From the NCBI GenBank assembly GCA_964599075.1, contig CAZREG010000008.1, positions 8,972 through 72,971 on the forward strand: a stretch of 64,000 nucleotides of DNA, given 5' to 3'. This DNA is from an uncultured Spirochaetaceae bacterium (GTDB lineage: Bacteria; Spirochaetota; Spirochaetia; DSM-27196; SLST01). A model generated the notes under the pieces. It saw only the letters and a program-made list of their open reading frames with translations. It ran no database searches and was not told where the DNA came from. The position numbers were made by a program, and so were the translations under genes. Each line of letters opens with the position of its first letter. Position 1 is the first letter of the stretch. This document shows positions 43,104-58,207 of this stretch, piece after piece.

Positions 43104-43177
43104 AGCCTCTATTCTACCGTGCGCAACGGTTCGAAAAAAGGCACGCCCACGTCACCGACGCTGTTTTTGTTCTCCGC

Positions 43178-44581: not shown

Positions 44582-44788
44582 GAGACTCCTCCATGATTCA
44601 ATGACGCTGAGGGTACCATGAGCGCCGGGTTTCCGATAGGCCATTTTGTTGCAGAGGAGAGACCCAAGCCCGTAGAACTTTGACAATATGTTGCGATCCT
44701 GTAGTACCACGGCTCTTCCACGGTAGCCGCGATGTCTCAAGCTCTGCTATCCAGGCGACCCCTTCGGGTGAAGAACCGACGGGTGAGC

Positions 44789-45772
44789 TTATGCCCAGCT
44801 GCGCTCACGCGAAGAGACAAAGACCCGTTCTATGACTCTCATGTTCGCCACCGCATCTTCAACAGGAGTTGCGACCGGTGTGTCATTGAGAATCGCGAGC
44901 GACATATTCTCCGCCTGCAGCGTGTACTGGTCGACAACGGGGAACTCGATAACTTCAAACTCACTTCCACGCTGCAGGTTTATGATGCACGGCCTGTCAG
45001 GCGGCGCATTGAACGGAATCTGGATCTCGATCCGTCCGTCGGTGCCAAAGATGTTCACGCGCTGATACGGCGCAAGCTGCGTTGAGTAGCTGAAGGTGGA
45101 GGTGCCACCCTCGAACTCAAGGGCCACGCTGCCATACGAATCTGTCTGAAAGGTCCGGTCTATTTCAATAGAGGCGCTCACGTTCCGCGGCTCAGACCCG
45201 TAGATGAATCGACTGGCAGAGATGGGATAGCAACCGATGTCCATGAGCCCGCCGCCGCCGATCTCTGCCTGGTTACGGATATTACCGGGATCCACGTTGT
45301 GGTAGCTGAAGAAAGAGTGCATCGTCTTGAGCGTGCCTATCGCACCGTCTTCGACAAGCTGCTTCGCCCGGATCCACTGGGGGTGGTGACGGTACATAAA
45401 CGCCTCCATCAGCTTCAGACGTGGATAGCTCTCGCCGGCAGCCTCGAGCTGCTCGGCCTCAGCCACCGACAGACCGATCGGTTTCTCGCAGAGCACGTGC
45501 TTCCCGGCCTCAAGACACTTGATAGACCATTCAACATGGAGGTGGTTGGGAAGCGGATTGTAGATCGCATCAATCTGGGGATCCGCGAGCAGCGCGTCGT
45601 AACTGCCGTACGATCGTGGAATCCCGAGTCTGGCGGACACCTGTTCGGCTCGCCCCCGGTCGCGTGAAGCAATCGCCGCAACATCTGTATACCTGGCGTT
45701 CTGCATGGCCGGAATCACCTTTTGAATACCGATTTTTGCCGTACTGAGAATGCCCCACCGCACTCGTTTCAT
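44789..45772 (-). CDS. Gfo/Idh/MocA family oxidoreductase
   Basis: WGILSTAKIG, YNPLPNHLH.EW, HVLCEKP, EAFMYRHHPQW, GGGLMDIGCY. Confidence 0.92.
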   Translation of the reverse strand: MKRVRWGILSTAKIGIQKVIPAMQNARYTDVAAIASRDRGRAEQVSARLGIPRSYGSYDALLADPQIDAIYNPLPNHLHVEWSIKCLEAGKHVLCEKPIGLSVAEAEQLEAAGESYPRLKLMEAFMYRHHPQWIRAKQLVEDGAIGTLKTMHSFFSYHNVDPGNIRNQAEIGGGGLMDIGCYPISASRFIYGSEPRNVSASIEIDRTFQTDSYGSVALEFEGGTSTFSYSTQLAPYQRVNIFGTDGRIEIQIPFNAPPDRPCIINLQRGSEFEVIEFPVVDQYTLQAENMSLAILNDTPVATPVEDAVANMRVIERVFVSSRERSWA

Positions 45773-45917: not shown

Positions 45918-46694
45918 ATGTTTCAAAACCTTTCAGGCCGTGAAAAGCAAGTCCTTGATCTCCTCGTTGAAGAAGAAGGTATATCAGTTACGGATCTGGG
46001 CAAGAGGCTTGCCGTATCAACGGTAACGGTCCGCTCCGTACTCAATACGCTCAGTGAGAAGGGCGTCATTGTTCGGACCTGGGGCGGCGCGACACCGGCG
46101 TTCCATCCGGCTATCCTTGAGCGACAGCGGACCAACCATGAGGTGAAGGCCCGGATTGCGGCGAGGGCGGCGGAGATGGTGCATGATGGAGACGCAATAA
46201 TGGTGGAGGCCGGTACCACGACAAGTCAGATCGGCCGTTACCTATTTGGCAAACGTGATCTGCATGTGGTGACCAATTCCACGCTCTTTGTTGCCTACGG
46301 CCGTGCAAATCCGGCACTCAGCGTAACCGTTGTCGGCGGGAGCTTTCAGCCGGTTACCGAGTCGCTCGTGGGCCCCATTACGCTTCGCGAGCTCGAGCAG
46401 TTTCACGTCCGGCTGGCATTTGTGGGAGCGGACGGGTTCAGCGTCTCCGAAGGCGCCACCGCACATCTGGTTGAAGGCGCCGAGATTGTCCGCAAGATGA
46501 CCGAACGCGCAGACCGACCGATCCTTCTTGCCGACAGCAGCAAGTACAACCAGCATGGGTTTACGCGCGTGATCGATCTGAACCGGTTTTCCATGATCAT
46601 CAGTGATACCGACCTGGCGCCCGAGGCTCGTACAGAACTTCAGGACGCAGGTATAGAACTCTGTCTTGTAGAGAGGAGAAAGAATGGCAAGTGA
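45918..46694 (+). CDS. DeoR/GlpR family transcriptional regulator
   Basis: HTH (ISVTDLG..L.VS..TVR), EAGTTT, VVTNS, FVGADG, LADSSK. Confidence 0.93.
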   Translation: MFQNLSGREKQVLDLLVEEEGISVTDLGKRLAVSTVTVRSVLNTLSEKGVIVRTWGGATPAFHPAILERQRTNHEVKARIAARAAEMVHDGDAIMVEAGTTTSQIGRYLFGKRDLHVVTNSTLFVAYGRANPALSVTVVGGSFQPVTESLVGPITLRELEQFHVRLAFVGADGFSVSEGATAHLVEGAEIVRKMTERADRPILLADSSKYNQHGFTRVIDLNRFSMIISDTDLAPEARTELQDAGIELCLVERRKNGK

Positions 46695-47976
46695 GGTGTT
46701 GTTGCCCAAACAGGGTAACTCAGTCGAGAGCTGCATCATTGTCCAGTGGAAGGTGGATGAAGGCGCATCGGTCTCCAAAGGAGACCCGATTCTCGAGGTG
46801 GAAACCGACAAGGCGACCATGGAGGTGGAATCCACAGCCGACGGCGTGCTGCTCAGGCAGCTCGTTGGGGAAGGCGATGACGTACCGGTCCTCTCCCCCA
46901 TCGCTATTGTAGGAGAGGCGGGGGAGAAGGTAGATGTCCCGGGCAAGGCCGATGATAATCGGTCCGTCTCAACTGGCTCAGCCGACGGCGGCTCTGCGAA
47001 ATCCGCCGGACGGCAATCGTCAAAGGAGGCTGTCGCGACCGCACCGGCGGATGCAGCCGGGTCCGGGAGCTCCCCGGGCCGCACCCACACCGGCGGTGCA
47101 AAGATCAGCCCGCGGGCCCGAAAGCTCGCAGAGAAGCTGGACGTGGACTACTCCGCTCTCTCCGGCAGCGGACCGGGTGGCCGAATAATGGCGCGGGACG
47201 TTGAAACCGCTACGCCCCGGGCAGCCGGCGAAGCCGCTGGGTCAGCGGCCCACGAAGGCGCAACAGCCGCCGCAGTCGGACGGCCGGCTCAGATTGCCGA
47301 GAGCGTCCAGATCAAGGGCGTGCGCAAGCTCATTGCAGAGCGGATGCATGCCTCGCTGGCCACTACCGCGCAGCTTACCATGGATGCAAGCGCGGACGCC
47401 CGCCAGATCCTTGGCTACCGCAAACGGCTGAAGGCCTCCGGTGATGAGCAGCTGCAGGCTGTCTCCATCAACGACCTGATCCTCTTTGCCGTCAGCAGAA
47501 CGGTAGCCGCGTCCCCGGATCTCAACCGAACCTTTGAGAGTGGGACGGTGACCAGCTATCACGGCGTGAACCTGGGGTTCGCCGTGGATACACCAAAGGG
47601 GCTTATGGTACCGGTCATCCCGGGAGCAGACACGCTTTCACTGGTGGAACTCGCTCGTCAGGCGCACACACTCGCAGAGAGGTGTCTGTCAGGATCGGTC
47701 TCCCCTGATGATCTGCGGGGTGGGACGTTCACCGTGACGAATCTTGGTGCGTTCGGGATCGAGCGGTTCACACCGGTGCTTAATCCCCCGCAGGTTGGAA
47801 TTCTTGGGGTCTGCGCCGTCACACAGAAGCCAGCCCCGGATGGCGAGGGAACGATCCCCATGATGGGACTCTCTCTCACCATTGATCATCAGATAGTAGA
47901 TGGTGCGCCGGCAGCGCGGTTCCTCAACGCCATGACAGAGGCCGTTGCGCAACTTGACCTGACGCTCGCGAAATAG
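46684..47976 (+). CDS. Dihydrolipoamide acyltransferase (E2)
   Basis: Lipoyl domain ETDKA, subunit-binding domain SPRARKLA...GSGPGGRI, catalytic TVTNLG...DHQIVDG. Confidence 0.93.
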   Translation: MASEVLLPKQGNSVESCIIVQWKVDEGASVSKGDPILEVETDKATMEVESTADGVLLRQLVGEGDDVPVLSPIAIVGEAGEKVDVPGKADDNRSVSTGSADGGSAKSAGRQSSKEAVATAPADAAGSGSSPGRTHTGGAKISPRARKLAEKLDVDYSALSGSGPGGRIMARDVETATPRAAGEAAGSAAHEGATAAAVGRPAQIAESVQIKGVRKLIAERMHASLATTAQLTMDASADARQILGYRKRLKASGDEQLQAVSINDLILFAVSRTVAASPDLNRTFESGTVTSYHGVNLGFAVDTPKGLMVPVIPGADTLSLVELARQAHTLAERCLSGSVSPDDLRGGTFTVTNLGAFGIERFTPVLNPPQVGILGVCAVTQKPAPDGEGTIPMMGLSLTIDHQIVDGAPAARFLNAMTEAVAQLDLTLAK

Positions 47977-47985
47977 GAGAAGGAA

Positions 47986-50442
47986 ATGCCACAGTCACAG
48001 GTAATCAACCCGGAAGAAGTCCGAAAGGGCGGGACAATAAAGCTGGGTGAGATCCCCATCAATCAGTACAACGCGACGCCAAAACAGGAGGTGAAGCGTT
48101 ACGGGAAGGAGCGCCTCACGCGTGCGCTCTACGACATGATGACCATCCGCGAGTTCGAGTCCATGCTCAACGAGATCAAGATGCAGGGCAGCTACCGCGG
48201 AATTGAGTACACGCACAAAGGGCCGGCCCACCTCTCGATAGGACAGGAGTCCACGGCCGTCGGGGTGGCAATGGAACTGGAGGTGGAGGACTTCATCTTT
48301 GGAAGCCACCGCAGCCACGGAGAGATCCTGGCGAAGTGCTACTCCGCAATCACACAGCTTGATGATGCAGCACTCGACCGGACAATGCGCGATTACTTTG
48401 GTGGTGAGATCCTCAGCGTTGTGGAGCCGGGATCAGACGGTGGTGTCACGGAGCTTGCGGAAGATTTCGTGCTTTACGGAACCCTCGCAGAGATCTTCGC
48501 ACGCAAGACCGGATTCAACCGCGGTCTCGGTGGCAGCATGCACGCCTTCTTTGCCCCGTTCGGCAGCATGCCGAACAACGCTATCGTTGGCGGCAGCGCG
48601 GACATTGCGCTCGGCTCGGCGCTGTTCAAGCGTATCAACCGCAAGCCGGGCATCGTCATCGCAAGCGTTGGTGATGCCTCTATGGGCTGCGGCCCGGTCT
48701 GGGAGGCGATGATGCTCAGCGCCATGGATCAGTACCACTCGCTCTGGCAGGAGGATATCGGTGGGGCACCGCCGGTGTTGTTTAACTTTATCAACAACTT
48801 CTACGGCATGGGTGGCCAGACATCCGGGGAAACGATGGGTTTTGGTGTTCTTGCCCGCGCCGGCGCCGGCGTGAACGCGGAAATGATGCATGCTGAACGT
48901 GTTGACGGCTACAACCCGCTTGCCGTCGCCGACGCAATTGCGCGCAAGAAGGAGCTCCTGCTTGCCGGCAGAGGTCCCGCGCTCATGGACACCATCACCT
49001 ACCGCATAAGCGGCCACTCGCCCAGCGATGCGTCGAGCTATCGGACCAAAGAGGAGATCCAGCTCTGGCAGGAGGCGGATGCTCTGGCAAGCTTCAGCGA
49101 ACGCCTCAAAGAGGCTGAAGTGGTGAGCGAGAGCGAGATTGGCGCCATGCAGGAGAAGATCATCGGGAAGATCGAGAAGGCGATGCGCCTTGCCATCGAC
49201 ATGGAAAAGAGTCCTCGGGTGCCCGGGAAGTTTATAGGTGAGGTGATGTTCAGCAACTCACCAACCGAGAAGCTCGACGACCGGGAGCCTGAGGTGATGC
49301 TACCGCGGGAAGAGAATCCACGGGTGAAGCAGATCGCTCGCAAAAGCCGCAGCGCATTTGACGAGAACGGTGAAGAACTCTCCCGGATGAAGGTTGTCGC
49401 CTACCGCGATGCGCTCTTTGAGGCTGTTGTTCACCGGTTCTACGAGGACCCCACGCTTGCAGCCTGGGGGGAGGAGAACCGGGACTGGGGTGGCGCGTTT
49501 GCGGTGTATCGGGGCCTCACGGAGGCGCTGCCTTACCACAGGCTGTTTAACAGCTCGATCAGTGAGGGCGCGATTGTAGGTACGGGTGTTGGCTATGCTC
49601 TCAGCGGAGGCCGTGCGCTTGTTGAGCTCATGTACTGTGACTTCATGGGCCGCGCCGGGGATGAAATATTCAACCAGGCCGCCAAGTGGCAGAGCATGAG
49701 TGCCGGCGTCCTGAAGATGCCCTTGGTGGTACGAGTGAGTGTGGGCAGCAAGTACGGTGCACAGCACAGTCAGGACTGGACCAGCCTGGTCGCGCACATC
49801 CCGGGTCTCAAGGTCATGTTTCCGGCAACTCCGTACGACGCAAAGGGCATGCTCAATCTGGCCCTGCGGGGAACAGATCCGGTCATCTTCTTCGAGAGCC
49901 AGCGTCTCTATGACATTGGTGAGCAGTTCCACCCCCAGGGCGTGCCGGAGGGCTACTATGAGATCCCGGAGGGGGAGCCTGATGTAAAACGTGAGGGGAC
50001 CGATCTCACAATCGTGACGGTTGGCGCGACGCTCTATGTGGCGCTCGAGGCGGCGGAGGAGCTTGAACAGAAGTACGGAGTAAGCACGGAGGTTATCGAC
50101 GCACGCTTTATCAACCCGCTGAACATTGGGGCGATAAACGCCAGCGTTGCGAAAACCGGCAAGCTGGTGCTCGCAAGTGACGCCTGTGACCGAGCAAGCT
50201 TCCTGCATACCATCGCGAGTCAGGTGACGCAGACCGCATTTGATGAGCTGGACGGTCCCCCGGTGGTAGTGGGAAGCCGAAACTGGATCACCCCGGCGGT
50301 AGAGATGGAACCGGAGTTCTTCCCGCAGAAAGAGTGGATCATTGACGCAATCCACGAGCGGGTCCTGCCGCTTGCGGGCCACACGGTGACAACAGAACAG
50401 AGTGAGCAGGCGCTCATAGATCGATATAAGGCCGGCGTGTAA
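47986..50442 (+). CDS. Fused E1 alpha/beta ThDP-dependent dehydrogenase (2-oxoacid/acetoin dehydrogenase superfamily)
   Basis: HLSIGQE, HRSHG, GGSMH, ThDP motif GDAS...NNFY, TYR..GHS.SD. Beta part GEE, ISE..IVG, ELMYCDF, HSQ, P.TPYDAKG, DP.IFFE. Confidence 0.92.
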
Positions 50443-50462
50443 GGCGCGGCAAGGAGACAGAA

Positions 50463-51743
50463 GTGACTACAACAGCAGTTCGGATGTACGGCAAGAAGGA
50501 CCTCAGGCTCGAGAGTTTTGAGCTCCCTGAGATCAAAGATGATGAAATTCTCGCCCACATTGTGAGTGACAGCATCTGCATGTCCAGCTACAAGGCGGCA
50601 AAGCAGGGCTCCGATCACAAGCGGGTACCGGCAGACATTGGCACGAATCCGGTTCTCATTGGCCACGAGTTCTGTGGAGAGCTCGTGCAGGTTGGTGAGA
50701 AGTGGAAGGGCCAGTTCAAGGAGGGGCAGAAGTTCGGCATCCAGCCTGCCATGTTTTACGAGGGCGGCCCGGTTGGCATCCTCAGCGCTCCAGGCTACAG
50801 CTATCGCTACATTGGCGGAGATGCCACCTACATCGTGATTCCCAAAGAGGTGATGGAACAGGGGTGCCTGCTGCCTTACTCCGGCAGCGCATACTTCATG
50901 GGAAGCTTGAGTGAGCCGGTAAGCTGCATCGCCGGCGCCTTCCACGCGCAGTACCACACCACCCAGGGCTCCTACGAGCACAAGATGGGCATTGTTGAAG
51001 GCGGCACAATGGCGCTGCTCGCAGGCGTTGGTCCCATGGGCCTGGGGGCAATTGACTACGCGATCCACAACCCGGTGAAGCCGCGGCTGCTGGTGGTGAC
51101 GGACATCAATCAGGAGCGGCTGGACCGGGCGGAATCAATCTACACCGTTGAGCAGGCAGAACAGCAGGGTGTGGAACTTCACTACCTCAATACTGCCGGC
51201 ATGAGTGACCCGGTTGCAGAAATAAAGAAGAAGAACGGCGGCAACGGCTACGATGACGTTTTTGTCTTTGCGCCGGTGAAGCCGGTCGTTGAACAGGGGG
51301 ACGCTCTGCTGGGCAACGATGGATGCCTGAACTTCTTTGCCGGACCCACGGACACCGAGTTCAGCGCGAACTTCAACTTCTACAACGTCCACTATGAGGC
51401 ACACCACGTGGTGGGAACCTCAGGCGGCAACACGGATGACATCAAAGAGGCCCTAGAACTCATGAGCCGGGACGTGGTGAAGCCGGTCGCGATGATCACC
51501 CATGTGGGCGGCATCAACGCTGTTGTGGAGACAACGATCAACCTTCCTGATATCCCCGGGGGAAAGAAGCTGATCTATACAAACAAGAACCTCCCGCTGG
51601 TCGGGATTGACGACTTCGCGGAGAAAGGCAAGACCGATCCCTTCTACGCCCGCCTCGCAGAGATCTGCGCGAAAAACAACAACCTGTGGAGCGAAGAGGC
51701 GGAGAGATATCTGCTGGAGAATGCACCGGATATCGACTCATAG
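50463..51743 (+). CDS. MDR-family dehydrogenase, L-sorbose-1-phosphate reductase (SorE)-like
   Basis: AVRMYGKKDLRLESFELP, SDSICMSSYK, GHEF, AGVGPMG, FFAGP, VGTSGG, KKLIY. GTG start with SD GGAG. Confidence 0.85.
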   Translation: MTTTAVRMYGKKDLRLESFELPEIKDDEILAHIVSDSICMSSYKAAKQGSDHKRVPADIGTNPVLIGHEFCGELVQVGEKWKGQFKEGQKFGIQPAMFYEGGPVGILSAPGYSYRYIGGDATYIVIPKEVMEQGCLLPYSGSAYFMGSLSEPVSCIAGAFHAQYHTTQGSYEHKMGIVEGGTMALLAGVGPMGLGAIDYAIHNPVKPRLLVVTDINQERLDRAESIYTVEQAEQQGVELHYLNTAGMSDPVAEIKKKNGGNGYDDVFVFAPVKPVVEQGDALLGNDGCLNFFAGPTDTEFSANFNFYNVHYEAHHVVGTSGGNTDDIKEALELMSRDVVKPVAMITHVGGINAVVETTINLPDIPGGKKLIYTNKNLPLVGIDDFAEKGKTDPFYARLAEICAKNNNLWSEEAERYLLENAPDIDS

Positions 51744-51753
51744 CCCACCATTT

Positions 51754-51780
51754 CCGGGGACCACGACCGCTGGTCCCCGG
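51754..51780 (+). terminator. 10-bp stem-loop after the sorE-like gene (no U-tract)
   Basis: CCGGGGACCA(51754-51763)-N7-TGGTCCCCGG(51771-51780). Confidence 0.45.
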
Positions 51781-51823
51781 TCTGCTCCCTTATCGAACAG
51801 GGAACGTCCGTATCACACAGCTC

Positions 51824-51852
51824 TTGACCCTCGAATCTCCGCATGGTAGTAT
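51824..51852 (+). promoter_or_regulatory. Extended -10 sigma70 promoter of the radical SAM gene, near-leaderless
   Basis: TTGACC(51824-51829)-N17-TAGTAT(51847-51852) preceded by TGG, ATG at 51861 eight nt downstream. Confidence 0.65.
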
Positions 51853-51860
51853 CACAATCT

Positions 51861-53219
51861 ATGAAAAGTGGAGTTATTGACTTTAATTACTGGTATAGAG
51901 TTGATGACGGAATTACCTTCGCGTTCGACCTGCGTCAGAATCGATTCATCACTGTCACCGGTGATGACCCGCATGGTGCTGTGAAGGCGGTCAGAGAACT
52001 TCGTTCCGAGGCGGAGCGTAAAGTCCAGACGAGTACCCGTTCCGCACTATCACGGCTGAAGATCAGCAGTTCCGGCGCCTGTGGCCGGGATTGCACCTAC
52101 TGCTTCGGTGGAGACCGACGCTCTGAGCCGGTACCGCGGGAGGTGGCTCGACTGGCCATTGAAACCCTTGTGGAAACGCTTGGCCCGGACGCGCCATACT
52201 ACGAGATATACTACGACACCGGGTCGCAGCCGCTCGAACATCACGAGGGGCTTGCCTGTTTGTTGGAGACAGGTGCGGAGCTCGAAGCGCAAACGGGTAA
52301 ACGAATTGTCTGGCGCGTTGCAACAAACGGTGGAGAGACCGCAAGAGCGGGAGAGACCCTTGCGCGAATCCGTGATGTCGGCGGTAGCGTGGTGCTGCGG
52401 ATTGACGGGCCTCGCGACATACACAACCGCGCTCGCGTCCATCGTAACGGCCACGTTCCCCACGAGCAGGCGCTCGAGACCTTCGATCTCGCCCGCAAGC
52501 TATCTGTCCCGGTAGAAGGTGAGGCGATCATAACCGGTGACTATCCGTACCCGGCGAGAGTCTTCACCTACCTGCGCGATCTCGGGTTCAGCCGGATTGC
52601 GACGCGTCCGGTCAGGTCAAACCGTGTCTATGACCTCCAGGTAGCACGATTCAGGACGGGGTACGAGGATCTGTTCTCGGTGCTTCGACACTCCGTACGA
52701 TCAGGCCAGGAGGACGTATTCCGACAGCTCGCGAACGATCAGGCTCTCTCGCCGCTCTGGCGACTGCTGCCCGGACTCGAAAATCAAACCCGGCAGCAAT
52801 CCGAGATTGTTGTTGATGCAAAGGGCTTCTTTCATGTCTGTGATCGCTTGGTGGGAAGTCAATCCCGCGTCGTCGGAAGTATGCAAGACGGGATCAATTG
52901 GAACTCGGTGGATCAGGACCCGGAGGTGATTCCCCGCAGCCCCTGCACGCATTGCTGGGCTAGATTCGCATGTGGAGGTGCCTGCAGGCTTACCGGCATC
53001 TACAAGAACCTTGCACCGCAGAGCATTGACCGCTTGCCTTGCGAGTTCAACGAGTTCCTCGTGCAGAAAAATCTGGAGCTGATAGCGTACGCCGCGGCTC
53101 CCGTGAACCGATTGGAACTGATTCGAAAGGGGCTACTCGCGACCGTCCCCGAATCAGGATCAACGGGAGACGTCGCTCAGGCAACTGCGATAGACCCGAT
53201 CAAAGCGAGAGGCGGCTGA
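51861..53219 (+). CDS. Radical SAM/SPASM domain protein (anSME/peptide-maturase-like)
   Basis: CGRDCTYC, ATNG, IDGPRDIHN..R, G..HVC, CTHCWARFACGGAC...C. Confidence 0.82.
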   Translation: MKSGVIDFNYWYRVDDGITFAFDLRQNRFITVTGDDPHGAVKAVRELRSEAERKVQTSTRSALSRLKISSSGACGRDCTYCFGGDRRSEPVPREVARLAIETLVETLGPDAPYYEIYYDTGSQPLEHHEGLACLLETGAELEAQTGKRIVWRVATNGGETARAGETLARIRDVGGSVVLRIDGPRDIHNRARVHRNGHVPHEQALETFDLARKLSVPVEGEAIITGDYPYPARVFTYLRDLGFSRIATRPVRSNRVYDLQVARFRTGYEDLFSVLRHSVRSGQEDVFRQLANDQALSPLWRLLPGLENQTRQQSEIVVDAKGFFHVCDRLVGSQSRVVGSMQDGINWNSVDQDPEVIPRSPCTHCWARFACGGACRLTGIYKNLAPQSIDRLPCEFNEFLVQKNLELIAYAAAPVNRLELIRKGLLATVPESGSTGDVAQATAIDPIKARGG

Positions 53220-53228
53220 CAAAAGAAT

Positions 53229-53684
53229 CTACAGCTGATACCGCAGTCCAATGGCTCCCATGACATCAAGCTCGGTTGCGGGGATAAGGTTGAGTCCGGG
53301 CGCGATCTCCAGGAAAGCCTCGAGCGGAAGGTCGGGGAAATTGTAGAACAGACCGATCGGGACCCGAGCGCCGACCACCGGTTGGTCGCTAAGGTAGATC
53401 TTTGGCCCAACACCGACGAAGAACAGAAGCTGCACTGCTTCCACGTCTATCTGTTCGAAGTACTGCTGATAGTCGACGTGAAGATAGAGTGACCCGCCTG
53501 CGCCGCTCTCACCGCGCGGAACGAGAGACCAGGCTACGGCCAGATCGAGCGACGCGGCTGTTCCAAGCACCTGCCGAACGCTCAGGCCGGTCGGTTCTCC
53601 TGCTATCACACCAATGCTCGTCTGAGCTCCCAGGGTGCCGGCAAAGGTTGCCAGCGCAATAAAGGCAACTGCTGCTCTTTTCAT
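53229..53684 (-). CDS. Small outer-membrane beta-barrel protein (DUF3996-like)
   Basis: Signal peptide, IG...GEPTGLS, LYLHVDY, GARVPIG, FLEIAPG, terminal GLRYQL. Confidence 0.75.
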   Translation of the reverse strand: MKRAAVAFIALATFAGTLGAQTSIGVIAGEPTGLSVRQVLGTAASLDLAVAWSLVPRGESGAGGSLYLHVDYQQYFEQIDVEAVQLLFFVGVGPKIYLSDQPVVGARVPIGLFYNFPDLPLEAFLEIAPGLNLIPATELDVMGAIGLRYQL

Positions 53685-53691
53685 ATCATCC

Positions 53692-54828
53692 TCACTTTAA
53701 CATGCTCTGGCCGCCGGTGACGGGTACCGCCTGGCCTGTCTCATAAACCTGCTCAACTACGTAGAGCAGAGCCCGAACCACGTCTCCACCCGTGCACCCA
53801 CGGCCGAGCGGGACCTTCGCCTCGTACGCGGCCCGGACCTCCTCCACCGTCTTCGCCCCGGGTACCTTCCCCGCCTGGAGATACTGCACAAAGAGTCCCT
53901 TCTCCGGGTCGGACCAGAGGGGCCCGTCCAGGAAGTTGCCGGGGCACAGTGCGTTCACCTTGATCCGGTCCTCAACAAGCTCAAGCGCAAAGCTCTGCAC
54001 CAACCCTATTCCGCCGAACTTGCTTCCGGCGTACGCCCCGTTCTTGTTGCTGCCGATCAGACCGCTTTTGGAGTTGATCTGAACGATGTCCGTGAGATAG
54101 CTTGCCGGGGCAGCTGCATTCTGGACAGCCATCACTTGAGCCGCATACTTCGTGCAGACAAAAAAGCCGTTGTAGTTCACGTTGGTCACAAACGAAAAGT
54201 CACGACCGCTGAGCTCCTTCACACTTCCGGATTTCACGACCCCCGCGTTCGCAACGAACAGATCTATACCGCCGGCACGATCAACCAGCGTCTCAAGGAG
54301 TGCCTCAACGCTCTGTTCACTCGACACGTCAACGGTAGCACCAAAGGTACGCGGCCCGTGCTTCGCGTTGAGCTCTGCTGCAAGCGCATCCGCCCCCTCC
54401 CGGTTGAGGTCGGCTATACAGACAAGAGCGCCGTTATCCACCAGTCCGCGGACAAGCTGCTCGCCAAATCCCTGGGCGCCACCGGTCACAACGGCAACCC
54501 GACCACGAACAACGTTTTCGCGACCGACTGCGGAGGCGGCCTCACGCAGCGGTTCAGCGCTGCGGTCGGTGAACGGCGAGAGGGTGGCCCCGGTACGACA
54601 GAGGGTTCCATCCTCAAACTCGATCTCCCGCGGGATCCCCTGCTGCTGGACAAACTCCTGGAGCAGCGAGTTGATTGCTCCAGCGTCGTCAGTTAGCGGG
54701 ACGCCTGTCATGCGGGGGGACACAGCCCCGGCAGGCGATCGGTCTGCGAGCCGGATAATTGTAGGGGGTGCACCAAACTGCGCGAGGCCCCCGCGAAGAA
54801 GCGCAATACTCTGGTGAATCTGCTTCAT
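53692..54828 (-). CDS. Sorbitol-6-phosphate 2-dehydrogenase-like SDR with N-terminal extra domain
   Basis: TGGAQGFG, ANAG, QINSKSG..GS.KN.AYAGSKFGG.GL.QS.ALEL, PGNF.DGPLW, GQAVPVTGGQ.M. Confidence 0.85.
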   Translation of the reverse strand: MKQIHQSIALLRGGLAQFGAPPTIIRLADRSPAGAVSPRMTGVPLTDDAGAINSLLQEFVQQQGIPREIEFEDGTLCRTGATLSPFTDRSAEPLREAASAVGRENVVRGRVAVVTGGAQGFGEQLVRGLVDNGALVCIADLNREGADALAAELNAKHGPRTFGATVDVSSEQSVEALLETLVDRAGGIDLFVANAGVVKSGSVKELSGRDFSFVTNVNYNGFFVCTKYAAQVMAVQNAAAPASYLTDIVQINSKSGLIGSNKNGAYAGSKFGGIGLVQSFALELVEDRIKVNALCPGNFLDGPLWSDPEKGLFVQYLQAGKVPGAKTVEEVRAAYEAKVPLGRGCTGGDVVRALLYVVEQVYETGQAVPVTGGQSMLK

Positions 54829-54846
54829 TACTATCTCCTTGAGTCT

Positions 54847-56145
54847 CTACCAATCGACAAGCTGGTACGCCTGTTCCGGATGCGCCGGATCAATGGCGCG
54901 GCCAATGCGTGCGTATCTCTCAATACGTTCGCCAAGCGTCACTCCGGATCCGGATGACTCACTGAAAAGCGAGAGCGATGCGTCGTGGCTGGTAAGTTTC
55001 TCGTGTGCAATAAGCGCCCAGGTCGCCGCAATGAGGTGGGTAAACTCTGGTTGCATGATCTGAGGACAGGTGAACTCCTGTCGGGAAGAGTTGATATCCA
55101 CCCCGCTGATCTCCATCAGTGAGTGCCTTGTGCACAGCTCCTGAACCCGTCGCAGTTGCTGAACCGTGTTTCGTGGAGGCATGTAAGTGACGGCCCTGAA
55201 CCCAAGGCCCTTGATCACGGAAAACAGCTCGTCGAGATAAGAGTCCTCAAACATCTCCGCCTTTTTATCCCCGGTGGGACTCTCTCCCACGTCACCCAGA
55301 TAGGCGTAGGCTGGGACTGCCTCCAGAGACACGCCAAAAGAGACCACCTGCTCGACCGGGATGCACTCGTCCTCGTCCGGTTGTTCAAAAAATCTCGGGA
55401 GGAAGGTGCTCTTCATGGCCCCCAGCAGATCGTACTCGTAGTGCGGATTGGTCTGGTCGTCCAGGTAGCCGGCAAGACGTGCAGGAAGGCTGCCTGTCAG
55501 ATTACTCTCAAGCCAGTTCCGCAGCTGGGACCCGCGCCCTTTCCAGGCCACCAGCGCTTTTGCGGCGGCGAACAGGAGGTGACGCTCGGTTATACTCCCG
55601 CCCTCCTCCGAGCGCGAGAGTGCTGAAACATCCTCCCAGCTCACCTCCGGGGCTCCGGACTCTGTAAGCAACCGGCTCATTGCGACGGTCTGGGACCGAT
55701 TGCGCTCGTTGCGACGTGCTCGTAGCGGCGTAAGAAACGCCTCCACCTCAGGGATCCTATCCCGCGGGACTCCGTGAAGCACCATGTAGGCGATATTGGT
55801 GCTGTCAGGATTGTTGAGCTTTCGTCCTTCCAGCGGCGTCCCAGAGAAGTTCACCCGCAGCTCGCACCCCACGGTGCTGCCGATCTCCAGGATCCTGCCC
55901 GCCTCAAGCATCTCTCGGGCAGCAGCGATTGAATCGTGATCCACACTTCCGACCGCCTGAAGACCAGCCTCTCTCGCCATCCATGCGGCAGCAGTGGGTG
56001 AATAGGGACTGAACGAATAAAACGTGTGTACGTGGTTGTTGACCTCTTCAAGCGGCGGGGGCGGTGCAGTGTCACCGGCAAGCAGGGCAAGGGCGGCAAG
56101 ACGCTCATCCGGCGTCGCGGCGTTGAGTTGTACCAACGGTTCCAT
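54847..56145 (-). CDS. PHP domain protein
   Basis: NNHVHT.YS, DHDS, GCE, LHGV, AYAYLGD, GVDIN. Confidence 0.82.
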   Translation of the reverse strand: MEPLVQLNAATPDERLAALALLAGDTAPPPPLEEVNNHVHTFYSFSPYSPTAAAWMAREAGLQAVGSVDHDSIAAAREMLEAGRILEIGSTVGCELRVNFSGTPLEGRKLNNPDSTNIAYMVLHGVPRDRIPEVEAFLTPLRARRNERNRSQTVAMSRLLTESGAPEVSWEDVSALSRSEEGGSITERHLLFAAAKALVAWKGRGSQLRNWLESNLTGSLPARLAGYLDDQTNPHYEYDLLGAMKSTFLPRFFEQPDEDECIPVEQVVSFGVSLEAVPAYAYLGDVGESPTGDKKAEMFEDSYLDELFSVIKGLGFRAVTYMPPRNTVQQLRRVQELCTRHSLMEISGVDINSSRQEFTCPQIMQPEFTHLIAATWALIAHEKLTSHDASLSLFSESSGSGVTLGERIERYARIGRAIDPAHPEQAYQLVDW

Positions 56146-56146
56146 A

Positions 56147-57079
56147 CTACGCTTTTTTCAATCTGCCGACGACCTCAGCGACCGCCTCATCCGCCCGGTC
56201 GTTGTCAATCTGGCAGGTACCCGCGGAACCGTGGCCACCGCCCCCGTACTCGAGCATCAACTCACCCACATTGGCTTCCGAACTGCGATTGAAAATTGAC
56301 TTTCCAACGGTAATGACCGTGTTTTGTTTCTTGAATCCCCAGATGACCTGTACGGATATATTGGTGTCAGGATAGAGCGCGTATTTCAAAAATCGGTTTC
56401 CTGCATAGATTGTCTCTTCCCCGCGTAGATCCACAATGAGAACGTTTCCGTCGACCGTCGAACAGGTACGCGTCTGTTCCTTGAACAGCTTCTCGTGCTC
56501 CCGATACAGCTCCACCCGCTCGCGCACGTCCTGAAGCTCCAGGATCTCCTCAATGGTGTACTCCCGGCAATAATCGATGAGGTCCATCATGAGCTGATAG
56601 TTTGATATGCGGAAATTCTTGAATCGACCCAGCCCGGTGCGGGCGTCCATCATGAAGTTCATCAGGTCCCAGCGCTGAGGATGCAGAACTTCCTCGCGGG
56701 TGAAGTTCGCCGAGTCGCCCTTGTCCACTGCATCCATGAGCTCTGTGGATACGGTCTTGAACACATCTACGCCGCCATAGTAGTCGTATACCACCCGCGC
56801 CGCAGAGGGTGCGTTGGTATCAATGATGTAGTTATCGTGATCGGTGTTGCGTCGTGACTCGGAAAGATGATGATCAAACGCGAGGTGCACACCTTCCACG
56901 AACGGCAGATTTGTAGTGATGTCCTCATCACTTATGGCAATCAGGCCATCCTGCATATCTTTCGGGTGCACGAATTTGATGTCGTTTATGAGATCGAGCT
57001 CTTTGAGCAGGACCGCACAGACCAGCCCGTCAAAGTCGCTTCGAGTCACGAGGCGGTACCTCTTTTTGTCTCCCGCCAT
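56147..57079 (-). CDS. DHH-family phosphoesterase (exopolyphosphatase-related/NrnA-like)
   Basis: TRSDFDG, FDHH, APSAAR, GGGGH..AG. SD AAGGAG before ATG 57079. Confidence 0.85.
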   Translation of the reverse strand: MAGDKKRYRLVTRSDFDGLVCAVLLKELDLINDIKFVHPKDMQDGLIAISDEDITTNLPFVEGVHLAFDHHLSESRRNTDHDNYIIDTNAPSAARVVYDYYGGVDVFKTVSTELMDAVDKGDSANFTREEVLHPQRWDLMNFMMDARTGLGRFKNFRISNYQLMMDLIDYCREYTIEEILELQDVRERVELYREHEKLFKEQTRTCSTVDGNVLIVDLRGEETIYAGNRFLKYALYPDTNISVQVIWGFKKQNTVITVGKSIFNRSSEANVGELMLEYGGGGHGSAGTCQIDNDRADEAVAEVVGRLKKA

Positions 57080-57142
57080 CAATTCCACTCCTTCGGCGCT
57101 ATGCTACAGGGAACGCCCGGTCGATTCAAGATAGCTGCTTCC

Positions 57143-57177: not shown

Positions 57178-58191
57178 ATGATCCTGGTTGGGGATATTGG
57201 AGGAACCAATACCACTGTTGGGCTTGTCTCTGAGCAAAACGGCAGATTCGTGCTCGAGCGGAAGGAGCGCTACGCGACCCAGTCTCTCGCCGGTGTTGAG
57301 AGTGCCATTGAGCAGTTCAGACAGGCATCACCATCCGACTGGGAGAGCGTCAACCGCTGCTGTTTAAGTGCAGCCGGTCCGGTCCGCGACGGAGTCTGTC
57401 GCATGACGAATGTGCCGTTCACCATCAACGCGTCTTATATCTCTACGGAGACAGGGATTGAGACACTTCTCATCAACGATTTCTCTGCCATCTGCTACGC
57501 GCTTCCCCTGCTCGACACCCATGACACCATTGACTCCCTGCCGCTGGTACACCCGGATGGTTCTCATCCGCCGCCGCATGGGCCGGTGAGAGCGGTCGTG
57601 GGCGCGGGTACCGGACTGGGAACGGGCTACCTCATCCAGGACGGCTCTCACTTTGTTGCTCACCCGTCGGAGGGCGGTCACAGTGACTTCCCAGCCACAG
57701 ATGAGCTCAGCCGAGCCTTCTTCGACTACCTCAGCAGTGATGCTTCCCCACCGCCCGGTATGGAACCTCATCTGTCGGGCCAGGGGATCCGGAACGCGTT
57801 TTACTTCCTCGCAGAGACCGGCCGCATAGAGACCGATGACACGGTTCAGGGGATTCTCGCCGGACCGGCGGATCAGATCCCCGAGCAGGTTGCCCGGCAC
57901 GCCGATGAGCACGACGGCCTGGCGACCGTCATGAAGCTCTTTGTGAAGCTCTACGCCCGCTACGCACGCAACACTGCTCTTTTCTTCCTGCCGCGAGGCG
58001 GTCTCTACCTCGCCGGAGGCATTGCGGCAAAGAATCAGACGTGGTTTACTGATAGTCACCGGTTCATGCGGGAGTTTGAGCAGAACTACAATGACCGAAT
58101 CACTCCCCTGCTGCGGGACACGCCGGTTTCACTCATAGTGGACTACGACGTCTCGCTCTATGGGGCCGCTCACGCCGCACTCAGCCTGTAA
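57178..58191 (+). CDS. glk: Glucokinase (gamma-proteobacterial/group II type)
   Basis: GDIGGTN, AAGPV, LINDF, GAGTGLG, SEGGH, GGLYLAGGIA.K, L.GAA. Confidence 0.92.
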   Translation: MILVGDIGGTNTTVGLVSEQNGRFVLERKERYATQSLAGVESAIEQFRQASPSDWESVNRCCLSAAGPVRDGVCRMTNVPFTINASYISTETGIETLLINDFSAICYALPLLDTHDTIDSLPLVHPDGSHPPPHGPVRAVVGAGTGLGTGYLIQDGSHFVAHPSEGGHSDFPATDELSRAFFDYLSSDASPPPGMEPHLSGQGIRNAFYFLAETGRIETDDTVQGILAGPADQIPEQVARHADEHDGLATVMKLFVKLYARYARNTALFFLPRGGLYLAGGIAAKNQTWFTDSHRFMREFEQNYNDRITPLLRDTPVSLIVDYDVSLYGAAHAALSL

Positions 58192-58207
58192 CACGCGAGG
58201 AGCACCC

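What the first reader, a model, noticed from the sequence alone, without database searches (positions are those of the whole stretch)
45918..56145. Uncharacterised lipoate/ThDP multienzyme complex embedded in a polyol/ketose-phosphate regulon
Seen: deoR-E2-fused E1alpha/beta-SorE-like reductase on the plus strand converge on PHP-SrlD-like dehydrogenase on the minus strand. There is no E3, kinase or PTS in the window. E2 retains the lipoyl Lys and catalytic His (DHQIVDG), and E1 has a variant ThDP motif (GDAS...NN). Established: DeoR/GlpR regulators sense sugar phosphates, SorE and SrlD interconvert ketose phosphates and glucitol-6-P, and acetoin dehydrogenase uses the same E1/E2 design to cleave an alpha-ketol oxidatively into aldehyde plus acyl-CoA. 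Inference: this complex is not PDH. It may be an oxidative 'ketolase' that splits a ketose(-phosphate) into an aldose(-phosphate) plus glycolyl/acyl-CoA with NADH gain. Alternatively it decarboxylates a 2-keto sugar acid. The two dehydrogenases would generate or recycle the ketose phosphate, and PHP would act as the phosphatase. Either would be a sugar-catabolic chemistry I do not know to be described.
Basis: partly seen in the sequence, partly recalled or inferred. Interest (0 to 1): 0.78.

Follow-up and report, generated by a model that had tools for sequence, protein, structure and literature searches.

The report
Sugar-linked lipoate/thiamine cleavage complex
A spirochaete gene cluster joins a pyruvate-dehydrogenase-like complex to two sorbose-pathway-type sugar-phosphate dehydrogenases; the same module occurs in several phyla, often beside fucose and rhamnose genes, which points to an undescribed way of breaking down these deoxy sugars.

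Summary
Window 45918-56145 encodes DeoR, E2, a fused E1alpha/beta, a zinc dehydrogenase about 50% identical to L-sorbose-1-phosphate reductase (SorE), an SrlD-like SDR and a divergent PHP-fold protein.

The E1 is 64-78% identical in at least 588 species genomes from five or more phyla. Relatives typically read DeoR-E2-E3-E1-PHP-SDR-SorE-like. Most carry the E3 that this window lacks, and seven loci carry a lipoate ligase. Of 80 genome loci, 11 have L-fucose or L-rhamnose isomerase nearby, usually with a sugar kinase. Rhizobium and Agrobacterium plasmids hold a 54-56% identical E1 with an AcoC-type E2, sugar kinases and a sugar-phosphate regulator.

Best reading (about 0.35): the two dehydrogenases move the carbonyl of L-fuculose-1-P or L-rhamnulose-1-P to C5, and an acetoin-dehydrogenase-like complex then cleaves the 1-deoxyketose phosphate into acetyl-CoA and a tetrose-4-phosphate.

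Main rival (about 0.22): it is a PDH finishing lactaldehyde, lactate and pyruvate, because some relatives fuse the SDR to a RhaE-type aldolase domain.

Nine literature searches found no description.

The parts
45918..46694 (+). DeoR/GlpR-family regulator. First gene of the plus-strand operon; overlaps E2 by 11 nt.
   Evidence: Pfam HTH_DeoR plus DeoRC. Best NCBIfam hits are AgaR, GlpR and SrlR, all below cut-off. A homologue sits upstream of E2 in 36 of 48 related loci.
46684..47976 (+). E2 dihydrolipoyl acyltransferase: lipoyl domain, E3-binding domain and catalytic domain.
   Evidence: Pfam Biotin_lipoyl, E3_binding and 2-oxoacid_dh. ETDKA lipoyl-lysine motif and DHQIVDG are present; the lysine motif and the His, Asp and Gly are conserved in 58 homologues. 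All PDH and OGDH equivalog cut-offs are missed.
47986..50442 (+). Fused E1 alpha/beta ThDP enzyme, 818 aa.
   Evidence: Pfam E1_dh, Transket_pyr and Transketolase_C. GDA...NN ThDP motif, GGSMH, and [11 protein letters not shown] aligned with human PDH E1alpha. It is 64-78% identical in at least 588 species genomes of several phyla and 54-56% identical on Rhizobium, Agrobacterium and Pleomorphomonas plasmids.
50463..51743 (+). SorE-family zinc dehydrogenase (ketose-1-phosphate reductase type), 426 aa.
   Evidence: 50-51% identity over 99% of its length to annotated L-sorbose 1-phosphate reductase genes, and 54% to E. coli yggP. Catalytic Cys38 and His67-Glu68 are conserved. It is linked to E1/E2/E3 in two different gene orders.
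51754..51780 (+). Perfect 10-bp inverted repeat directly after the SorE-like stop codon; probable end of the plus-strand operon.
   Evidence: the repeat finder. No T-run follows, so a terminator function is inferred only.
53692..54828 (-). SrlD-like short-chain dehydrogenase. The catalytic domain is roughly residues 105-378; the N-terminal 100 residues or so are poorly conserved.
   Evidence: NCBIfam sorbitol-6-P dehydrogenase 235 bits against a cut-off of 307. PDB 5o3z, E 8e-47. 36-39% identical to annotated srlD. 51-58% identical to the SDR domain of aldolase-SDR fusions in relatives. Conservation profile.
54847..56145 (-). Divergent PHP-fold protein, 432 aa, of the TrpH/YciV structural type with a helical insertion.
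   Evidence: No Pfam hit. HxH, DHD and GxE motifs are invariant, but the last motif reads D-I-N instead of D-x-H. AlphaFold pLDDT 91.9. Foldseek best matches are 3o0f, 2yb1 and RNase AM at 15-18% identity. It follows E1 directly in most relatives. Roughly 25%-identical homologues occupy the same position in L102 and L157.

Best explanation
The six genes form a catabolic module for a phosphorylated deoxy sugar, most likely derived from L-fucose or L-rhamnose.

Proposed steps (all inferred; only the gene families and their linkage are shown):
1. An isomerase and an FGGY kinase, encoded next to the module in many relatives and elsewhere in this genome, make L-fuculose-1-P or L-rhamnulose-1-P.
2. 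The SorE-like enzyme reduces the C2 keto group next to the phosphate, and the SrlD-like SDR oxidises the C5 hydroxyl. SorE and SorD do the same when they turn L-sorbose-1-P into fructose-6-P.
3. Because C6 is a methyl group, the product is a 1-deoxy-2-ketohexose 6-phosphate, in effect a substituted acetoin.
4. The fused E1 adds ThDP to the methyl ketone and cleaves the C2-C3 bond. A tetrose-4-phosphate is released and the hydroxyethyl group passes to the lipoyl arm of E2.
5. E2 makes acetyl-CoA. An E3 encoded elsewhere in this genome reoxidises the lipoamide and yields NADH.
6. The PHP-fold protein acts on a sugar phosphate of this route. A 3-epimerase or isomerase activity would make D-erythrose-4-P the product from both sugars; a phosphoesterase role is the alternative.
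7. DeoR senses a sugar phosphate of the pathway.
For: 1. The SorE-like and SrlD-like genes are the two enzyme families of the sorbose pathway. Here they co-occur with E1/E2/E3 in several independent gene orders and phyla.
2. FucI, FucU, RhaA and FGGY or RhaB-like kinases lie next to the module in at least three different arrangements. In L012, L038 and L074 the operon holds isomerase plus kinase but no aldolase.
3. The E1 alpha part is of the PDH/acetoin type, with GGSMH and the GHS His. The known substrates of that type are methyl ketones.
4. The 54-56% identical alphaproteobacterial E1 sits with a separate lipoyl protein and an AcoC-type alpha/beta-hydrolase E2, a xylulokinase-like or PfkB kinase, a SorC-type sugar-phosphate regulator and sugar ABC transporters. 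Depending on the replicon, these loci also hold a polyol dehydrogenase, a xylose-isomerase-like TIM protein, a RbsD/FucU protein or lipA. Those loci carry no annotated SorE-like or SrlD-like gene. If their kinases phosphorylate the distal carbon, as xylulokinase does, no carbonyl transposition would be needed; that kinase specificity is inferred, not shown.
5. E3 passes the curated dihydrolipoyl dehydrogenase cut-off in relatives. LplA lies inside or beside the module in seven loci. The complex is therefore a working lipoyl system even in anaerobes.
6. None of the curated PDH, OGDH or BCKDH models is met.
Against: - No enzyme has been assayed, and no E1 of this family is known to accept a sugar phosphate.
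- In L102, L107, L108, L112 and L157 the SDR is fused to a class II aldolase domain. This is the architecture of RhaEW, which makes L-lactate from rhamnulose-1-P. Stand-alone RhaE-like genes lie near the module in about ten loci. Both points suggest lactaldehyde as the SDR substrate.
- By my stereochemical bookkeeping the direct product would be D-threose-4-P. An extra epimerase has to be assumed.
- The PHP role is a guess.
- About one third of the loci have only DeoR-E2-(E3)-E1. Some have only DeoR-SorE-like-E2-E3-E1-LplA without an SDR.
- This window contains no isomerase, sugar kinase or E3.
Confidence: 0.35

Rival explanations
1. Lower branch of the classical deoxyhexose pathway. An aldolase (RhaE-like, FucA or RhaD) gives DHAP plus L-lactaldehyde. 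The SDR oxidises lactaldehyde to L-lactate as RhaW does. Lactate is oxidised to pyruvate, and E1/E2/E3 is a dedicated pyruvate dehydrogenase making acetyl-CoA.
For: - Relatives carry aldolase-SDR fusions collinear with RhaEW models, and stand-alone RhaE-like genes.
- RhaEW is experimentally an aldolase plus lactaldehyde dehydrogenase, and lactate dehydrogenase genes join RhaR regulons in some genomes (PMC3870299).
- The best HMM hits of E1 and E2 are PDH models.
- DeoR-E2-E3-E1 stands alone in about a third of the loci.
- It needs no new chemistry.
Against: - It gives no role to the SorE-family enzyme (50% identical to sorbose-1-P reductase) or to the PHP protein. These are the genes most tightly linked to E1.
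- The module has no lactate dehydrogenase.
- The SDR scores 235 bits on SrlD but about 126 bits on RhaEW models, and the fusions reach only 230-250 bits against a cut-off of 568.
- All PDH cut-offs are missed.
- The alphaproteobacterial sister loci have sugar kinases and AcoC but no aldolase or lactaldehyde genes.
- From general knowledge, many host taxa already have a PDH or PFOR. This was not tested here.
Confidence: 0.22
2. E1 cleaves an ordinary ketose phosphate, as transketolase does, but transfers the glycolyl unit oxidatively to lipoate. The products are glycolyl-CoA and an aldose phosphate.
For: It rests on the same co-conservation with SorE-like and SrlD-like dehydrogenases, kinases and sugar-phosphate regulators. 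The SorE/SrlD pair could make a rare ketose-6-P from an L-ketose-1-P.
Against: - The neighbours are deoxyhexose genes (FucI, RhaA), not genes for rare hexoses.
- The E1 alpha part is of the PDH/acetoin type, whose known products are acetyl units (inference).
- No gene for glycolyl-CoA metabolism appears near the module.
- An ordinary ketose-6-P such as fructose-6-P would not need this complex.
Confidence: 0.1
3. E1 acts directly on a ketose-1-phosphate, or on a small methyl ketone such as methylglyoxal made after C5 oxidation and aldol cleavage. The SorE-like enzyme works before or after E1 on the carbonyl next to CH2-O-P, for example reducing the 4-carbon keto-aldehyde phosphate left by cleavage. 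The PHP protein removes a phosphate from the product.
For: - The minimal unit DeoR-SorE-like-E2-E3-E1-LplA has no SDR (L137, L140).
- The PHP fold is that of nucleotide or phosphoester hydrolases.
- The aldolase-SDR fusions would then catalyse consecutive steps.
Against: It is purely chemical reasoning, and no data separate it from the best explanation. It leaves the SDR without a clear role in the majority arrangement, or else requires toxic methylglyoxal.
Confidence: 0.1
4. An ordinary acetoin or 2-oxoacid (including 2-keto sugar acid) dehydrogenase complex that merely lies beside sugar genes.
For: The domain composition is that of any E1/E2 pair. Pleomorphomonas annotators named the homologues acoB and acoC.
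Against: - Linkage to SorE-like, SrlD-like, PHP and DeoR or SorC-type regulators recurs in several gene orders and at least five phyla.
- No AcoR-type regulator, butanediol dehydrogenase or sugar-acid enzyme (dehydratase, aldonate kinase) was seen in any locus.
Confidence: 0.06

Closest known systems
Acetoin dehydrogenase enzyme system (AcoA/AcoB/AcoC/AcoL)
   Same: ThDP E1 of the alpha/beta type, lipoyl E2 and E3. It cleaves a methyl ketol (CH3-CO-CHOH-R) into acetyl-CoA plus an aldehyde with NADH gain, and it also operates in anaerobes (general knowledge). As in Aco systems, the E2 partner is either a classical E2 (this window) or an alpha/beta-hydrolase AcoC type (Rhizobium and Agrobacterium relatives).
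   Different: E1 alpha and beta are fused, with an insertion of about 50 aa and a GDA ThDP motif. The regulator is a DeoR or SorC sugar-phosphate type, not AcoR. The neighbours are sugar kinases, isomerases and sugar-phosphate dehydrogenases rather than butanediol dehydrogenase. The proposed R group is a phosphorylated triol.
L-sorbose pathway enzymes SorE (L-sorbose-1-P reductase) and SorD/SrlD (glucitol-6-P dehydrogenase)
   Same: The same two enzyme families are encoded together: 50% identity to SorE and 36-39% to SrlD. Together they move a carbonyl from C2 to C5 of a ketohexose-1-phosphate.
   Different: There is no sorbose PTS. The pair is linked to E1/E2/E3 and a PHP protein. The SDR misses the SrlD cut-off (235 against 307 bits). 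With a 6-deoxy substrate the product could not enter glycolysis as fructose-6-P does.
RhaEW, bifunctional L-rhamnulose-1-P aldolase / L-lactaldehyde dehydrogenase (PMC3870299)
   Same: It belongs to rhamnose catabolism. In five relatives the module's SDR is the C-terminal domain of a protein collinear with RhaEW. The aldolase-like domain keeps the E...HxH...H metal motif.
   Different: Scores are 230-250 bits against a cut-off of 568. The SDR domain is closer to SrlD. In this window and in most relatives the aldolase domain is absent.
Pyruvate dehydrogenase complex (heterotetrameric E1 type)
   Same: Best-scoring HMMs for E1 alpha, E1 beta and E2. The catalytic His and the E2 motifs are the same.
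   Different: All equivalog cut-offs are missed by wide margins. E1 is fused. The regulator is DeoR. The complex is embedded in sugar-phosphate genes, and no E3 is found in the window.
TrpH/YciV-type PHP phosphoesterases (pAp phosphatase Cv1693, RNase AM)
   Same: The fold matches, with TM-score normalised to the target of 0.65-0.69. The HxH, DH and Glu motifs are shared.
   Different: Identity is only 15-18%, with about 130 extra residues. The last D-x-H motif is D-I-N and the first-motif Asp is missing. The context is sugar catabolism rather than nucleotide metabolism.

Membership tests
2-oxoacid/acetoin dehydrogenase multienzyme complexes | E1 with a ThDP-binding motif (GDG-X-NN), a pyrimidine-binding domain and a transketolase C-terminal domain | tested here: met
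   Pfam E1_dh, Transket_pyr and Transketolase_C. The motif is the variant GDA...NN, conserved in 76 homologues.
2-oxoacid/acetoin dehydrogenase multienzyme complexes | E2 with a lipoyl-lysine (DKA) domain, a peripheral-subunit-binding domain and a catalytic DHxxxDG His | tested here: met
   Pfam hits. ETDKA and DHQIVDG are present; Lys, His, Asp and Gly are conserved.
2-oxoacid/acetoin dehydrogenase multienzyme complexes | A dihydrolipoyl dehydrogenase (E3) partner | tested here: not met
   tblastn finds no E3 in the 64-kb window. E3 lies between E2 and E1 in 36 of 48 relatives and passes the TIGR01350 cut-off. An E3 elsewhere in this genome cannot be checked.
Pyruvate dehydrogenase (PDH) proper | Scores above the curated equivalog cut-offs for PDH E1 alpha, E1 beta and E2 | tested here: not met
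   E1 alpha 172 against 394 bits, E1 beta 243 against 321, E2 284 against 445.
Pyruvate dehydrogenase (PDH) proper | Pyruvate as the preferred substrate | not testable with these tools
   Needs an enzyme assay.
Acetoin dehydrogenase enzyme system | Cleavage of a methyl ketol rather than decarboxylation of a 2-oxoacid | not testable with these tools
   Inferred only, from the sugar context and the AcoC-type partner in relatives.
Acetoin dehydrogenase enzyme system | aco-type operon context (AcoR regulator, butanediol or acetoin genes) | tested here: not met
   The regulator is DeoR here and SorC-type in alphaproteobacteria. No butanediol dehydrogenase or AcoR was seen in any locus inspected.
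SorE, L-sorbose-1-phosphate reductase family | Full-length similarity to characterised or annotated SorE, with the catalytic zinc ligands | tested here: met
   50-51% identity over 99% coverage to annotated sorE. Cys38, His67 and Glu68 are conserved. Substrate not tested.
SrlD/SorD, hexitol-6-phosphate 2-dehydrogenase | Score above the curated equivalog cut-off | tested here: not met
   235 bits against a cut-off of 307. It is still the best hit by about 100 bits and the only annotated relative found at E<=1e-30 on plasmids.
RhaEW bifunctional aldolase/dehydrogenase | N-terminal class II aldolase domain fused to the SDR, with a score above cut-off | tested here: not met
   The window SDR has no aldolase domain; its N-terminal 100 aa match nothing. 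Fused relatives score 230-250 bits against 568.
PHP-domain metal-dependent phosphoesterases | PHP fold | tested here: met
   AlphaFold pLDDT 92. Foldseek E 2e-10 to 3o0f, also 2yb1 and RNase AM.
PHP-domain metal-dependent phosphoesterases | Complete set of His/Asp/Glu ligands of the trinuclear metal site | tested here: inconclusive
   HxH, DHD and Glu95 are invariant, but the terminal D-x-H reads D350-I-N352 and the first-motif Asp is absent. This was judged from sequence only, without a structural superposition.
DeoR/GlpR regulators | HTH_DeoR N-terminal domain plus DeoRC sensor domain | tested here: met
   Pfam E 1e-10 and 4e-43. The effector is unknown.

The most novel reading that the evidence does not exclude
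Many anaerobes and plant-associated bacteria degrade L-fucose and L-rhamnose by a route that bypasses lactaldehyde and needs no aldolase. Sorbose-type enzymes move the carbonyl of the 6-deoxyketose-1-phosphate. A lipoate/ThDP complex then performs an oxidative, acetoin-type cleavage of a 1-deoxyketohexose-6-phosphate into acetyl-CoA plus erythrose-4-phosphate. The PHP-fold protein would be the first non-hydrolytic (epimerase or isomerase) member of its family. E1 enzymes of the 2-oxoacid dehydrogenase family would thereby gain sugar phosphates as a substrate class.
Probability: 0.25. Interest if true: 0.85.

Novelty: new variant of a known kind. Interest (0 to 1): 0.72.

Why it matters
Fucose and rhamnose are major sugars of mucus, pectin, fucoidan and root mucilage. 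The textbook anaerobic route discards half the carbon as 1,2-propanediol or needs B12-dependent microcompartments. A route that yields acetyl-CoA, a pentose-phosphate-pathway intermediate and NADH would change carbon and redox budgets for spirochaetes, Verrucomicrobiota, Propionibacteriaceae and rhizobia in guts, sediments and rhizospheres.

It would also add a new substrate class (sugar phosphates) to the E1/E2/E3 family, suggest a function for the SorE-like homologue YggP of E. coli (54% identical, function unknown), and give a handle on thousands of unannotated 'PHP domain-containing' proteins. Even if the complex proves to be a dedicated PDH, the module defines an unrecognised, widely transferred extension of deoxyhexose regulons. 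It is directly testable, because cultured hosts exist (Marispirochaeta aestuarii, Treponema primitia, Tessaracoccus, Rhizobium johnstonii 3841).

Tried and rejected
- **313-aa gene next to PHP (56147-57088).** It is a PggH-type pGpG phosphodiesterase (PDB 7d62, E 1.5e-128) and co-occurs in only three loci. Excluded from the module.
- **Radical SAM/SPASM gene and 151-aa secreted protein inside the interval.** Absent from the 84 other loci screened for them. Excluded.
- **E3, lipoate ligase, FucI, RhaA or FGGY kinases elsewhere in the window.** None found.
- **Nine full-text literature searches.** Topics covered glycolyl-CoA with lipoamide, fucose/rhamnose with dehydrogenase complex, erythrulose, threose-4-P and 1-deoxy sugars, sorbose-1-P reductase and yggP, pRL8 and RhaEW. 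None describes the module. The pRL8 transcriptome paper does not mention these genes.
- **Reading substrate specificity from E1 active-site residues.** Tried with PDB alignments and the Geobacillus E1 paper. Not informative without a structure.
- **DeoR operator near TTTCGAAA upstream of deoR.** Matches in the window are no more frequent than chance, and no repeats lie in the promoter region.
- **Neighbours of loci that have only DeoR-E2-E3-E1 or only SorE-like-E2-E3-E1.** They are unrelated housekeeping or miscellaneous genes.
- **N-terminal 100 residues of the SDR as a remnant of the aldolase domain.** No detectable similarity.
- **2-keto sugar acid substrate.** Rejected for lack of any dehydratase, aldonate or uronate gene in the loci.

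Full report
**What is in the window**

ORF listing and profile searches show a plus-strand operon:
- deoR, 45918-46694;
- E2, 46684-47976, overlapping deoR by 11 nt;
- a fused E1alpha/beta of 818 aa, 47986-50442, starting 9 nt after E2;
- a 426-aa zinc dehydrogenase, 50463-51743.

A perfect 10-bp hairpin follows at 51754-51780.

On the minus strand, converging, lie a 432-aa protein without a Pfam hit (54847-56145) and a 378-aa SDR (53692-54828).

Between the two groups sit a radical SAM/SPASM gene (51843-53219, +) and a 151-aa signal-peptide protein (53229-53684, -).

- E2 has ETDKATMEVES and DHQIVDG.
- E1 has VGDASMG...FINN, plus GGSMH and [11 protein letters not shown] aligned with human PDH E1alpha.

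tblastn finds no E3, FGGY kinase, fucose or rhamnose isomerase, or lipoate ligase anywhere in the 64 kb. Homologue names place the organism in the Spirochaetota.

**Identity of the accessory genes**

- The zinc dehydrogenase is a SorE-family enzyme. It is 50-51% identical over 99% of its length to genes annotated L-sorbose 1-phosphate reductase in Klebsiella, Citrobacter and Serratia, and 54% identical to E. coli yggP.
- The catalytic domain of the SDR has sorbitol-6-phosphate dehydrogenase as its best hit by far: 235 bits, but below the 307 cut-off. The PDB match 5o3z has E 8e-47, and identity to annotated srlD is 36-39%.
- The 432-aa protein has invariant HxH, DHD and Glu motifs. Its AlphaFold model (pLDDT 92) matches TrpH/YciV-type PHP phosphoesterases at 15-18% identity. 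The last PHP motif reads D-I-N rather than D-x-H, so it may not be a canonical phosphoesterase.
- The 313-aa gene upstream of it (56147-57088) is a PggH-type pGpG phosphodiesterase. It is not part of the module.

**Conservation**

A scan of one genome per species found at least 588 genomes encoding an E1 that is 64-78% identical. They come from Spirochaetota, Propionibacteriaceae, Chloroflexota, Verrucomicrobiota, Lentisphaerota, Anaeromyxobacter and others. tblastn and ORF clustering of the 80 loci returned give a canonical order of DeoR-E2-E3-E1-PHP-SDR-SorE-like.

- Of 48 loci with enough upstream sequence, 47 have E2, 36 have E3 and 36 have DeoR.
- Of 44 loci with at least 5 kb downstream, 27 have PHP plus SDR and 19 have the SorE-like gene. 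Propionibacteriaceae and Chloroflexota use a longer zinc dehydrogenase instead.

The E3 of relatives passes the curated dihydrolipoyl dehydrogenase cut-off. The window therefore carries a rearranged copy: E3 is lost from the operon, the PHP-SDR pair is inverted, and two foreign genes are inserted. All module genes are full length.

A second scan centred on the SorE-like gene in metagenomes found further orders:
- DeoR-SorE-like-E2-E3-E1-LplA;
- SorE-like-SDR-PHP;
- SorE-like-(aldolase-SDR fusion)-E2-E3-E1-PHP.

The linkage between the SorE-like gene and the complex has therefore been kept through several rearrangements. A lipoate-protein ligase lies in or beside the module in seven loci.

**Physiological context**

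- Among the 80 genome loci, 11 carry L-fucose isomerase or L-rhamnose isomerase next to the module, usually with FucU and an FGGY kinase. The kinase is either rhamnulokinase-like (471 bits on TIGR02627) or a divergent type. More such loci appear in the metagenome set.
- The isomerase and kinase genes lie upstream of deoR in some loci and downstream of the SorE-like gene in others. These are independent juxtapositions.
- In L012, L038 and L074 the operon contains isomerase and kinase but no aldolase.
- A RhaE-type class II aldolase gene is nonetheless nearby in about ten loci. In five loci the SDR is the C-terminal domain of a 653-673-aa protein collinear with the RhaEW aldolase/dehydrogenase, though far below its cut-offs. 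The aldolase-like domain keeps its metal motif.
- RhaEW is experimentally an L-rhamnulose-1-P aldolase plus L-lactaldehyde dehydrogenase that yields L-lactate (PMC3870299).

**A sister clade in cultured bacteria**

tblastn against plasmids found 54-56% identical fused E1 genes on Rhizobium leguminosarum/johnstonii 3841 pRL8, on Agrobacterium tumefaciens pAt15955 and in Pleomorphomonas. The next-best hits drop to 33%.

In all three replicons the E1 is followed by a 78-aa lipoyl protein and an alpha/beta-hydrolase of the AcoC type, and the locus holds a SorC-type sugar-binding regulator and a sugar ABC transporter. The other neighbours differ by replicon:
- pRL8: a PfkB kinase, a xylose-isomerase-like TIM protein and a RbsD/FucU protein.
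- pAt15955: a xylulokinase, a mannitol-dehydrogenase-family protein and lipA.
- Pleomorphomonas pSM30-1: a xylulokinase.

These loci have no annotated SorE-like, SrlD-like or PHP genes.

**Mechanistic inference**

What the data show is the gene families and their linkage. Everything below is inferred.

SorE and SorD/SrlD together convert L-sorbose-1-P through glucitol-6-P into fructose-6-P, moving the carbonyl from C2 to C5 (established pathway knowledge). Applied to L-fuculose-1-P or L-rhamnulose-1-P, the same two steps give a 1-deoxy-2-ketohexose 6-phosphate. That compound cannot enter glycolysis, but chemically it is a substituted acetoin.

An E1 of the PDH/acetoin type would cleave it into hydroxyethyl-ThDP and a tetrose-4-phosphate. 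E2 and E3 would then deliver acetyl-CoA and NADH.

This reading explains:
- why sugar-phosphate dehydrogenases, sugar kinases and sugar-phosphate regulators travel with the complex;
- why some operons lack an aldolase;
- why the alphaproteobacterial version, if its kinases phosphorylate the distal carbon as xylulokinase does, would need neither dehydrogenase;
- why an AcoC-type E2 can substitute for the classical E2.

By my stereochemical bookkeeping both sugars converge on one tetrose. C4 becomes the aldehyde and C5 the ketone. The product would be D-threose-4-P, unless C3 is epimerised first. With that epimerisation the intermediates are 6-deoxy-L-sorbose-1-P and 1-deoxy-D-fructose-6-P, and the product is D-erythrose-4-P.

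The PHP-fold protein is the only candidate in the module for such a step. Xylose-isomerase-like TIM proteins accompany the Chloroflexota and Rhizobium versions. This role for PHP is a guess.

**Rivals**

The strongest rival is a lower-pathway role: aldolase, then lactaldehyde to lactate by the SDR, then pyruvate, then a PDH. The RhaEW-like fusions and the stand-alone DeoR-E2-E3-E1 loci support it. However, it gives no function to the SorE-like and PHP genes and does not fit the alphaproteobacterial loci.

It fits the deoxyhexose context and the PDH/acetoin-type E1 less well.

Variants in which E1 acts on a ketose-1-phosphate or on methylglyoxal cannot be excluded. A 2-keto sugar acid has no support.

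I put the best explanation at about 0.35, the PDH rival at 0.22, and the others at 0.1 or less each.

**Novelty and verdict**

Nine full-text searches found no description of this module or of the proposed intermediates in catabolism. Database names are generic: 'alpha-ketoacid dehydrogenase subunit alpha/beta' and 'PHP domain-containing protein'.

The parts belong to known families, so I class the module as a new variant of a known kind. Interest is 0.72.

Noticed in passing
window 51843-53219 (+) and 53229-53684 (-): A radical SAM/SPASM protein of 458 aa (CxxxCxxC at Cys80-87; best hit is a PapB-type ranthipeptide maturase at 91 bits, far below cut-off) and a 151-aa protein with a signal peptide and a beta-barrel-like C-terminus. 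They sit between the SorE-like gene and the inverted PHP-SDR pair and are absent from the 84 other loci screened for them. No precursor peptide was identified.
   Followed up: partly
window 56147-57088 (-): A PggH-like DHH/DHHA1 pGpG phosphodiesterase (PDB 7d62, E 1.5e-128). Its stop codon lies 1 nt before the start of the PHP-fold gene. The same pairing occurs in L003 and L081, so two nucleotide-phosphoesterase-type folds lie side by side.
   Followed up: partly
window 57178-59821 (+): A glucokinase and a 553-aa UDPGP-family protein lie divergent from the PggH-like gene. The same neighbours flank the module in Marispirochaeta aestuarii (L083) and in L003 and L081.
   Followed up: no
window 42345-45772 (-): DUF1638, a GH4 glycosidase (520 aa) and a GFO/IDH/MocA oxidoreductase lie divergent from deoR. 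They are not conserved next to the module in relatives.
   Followed up: no
L014 6284-7339, L018 3281-4348, L024 8873-9937: Termite-gut Treponema loci carry a 351-aa protein with a 4Fe-4S double-cluster domain (Fer4_16) inserted between E3 and E1. This may be an alternative electron outlet for the complex.
   Followed up: no
L085 1-11335: In one large contig the E1 is separated from the PHP-fold gene by a PhdYeFM/PIN toxin-antitoxin pair, an Fe-ADH (FucO-like), a LarA-like protein and a GntR/FCD regulator. This hints at a link to lactaldehyde or lactate.
   Followed up: no
L086 (Rhizobium johnstonii 3841 pRL8, record 81899-93416): The E1/lipoyl protein/AcoC/PfkB kinase/SorC-regulator cluster lies about 10 kb from the homoserine dehydrogenase gene pRL80071 on the pea-rhizosphere plasmid pRL8. 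The transcriptome paper read here does not mention the cluster.
   Followed up: partly
window 53692-54828 (-), codons 1-100: The N-terminal 100 residues or so of the SDR ORF are poorly conserved among 38 homologues. Their codon-position GC resembles that of coding sequence, so the true start codon is uncertain.
   Followed up: partly
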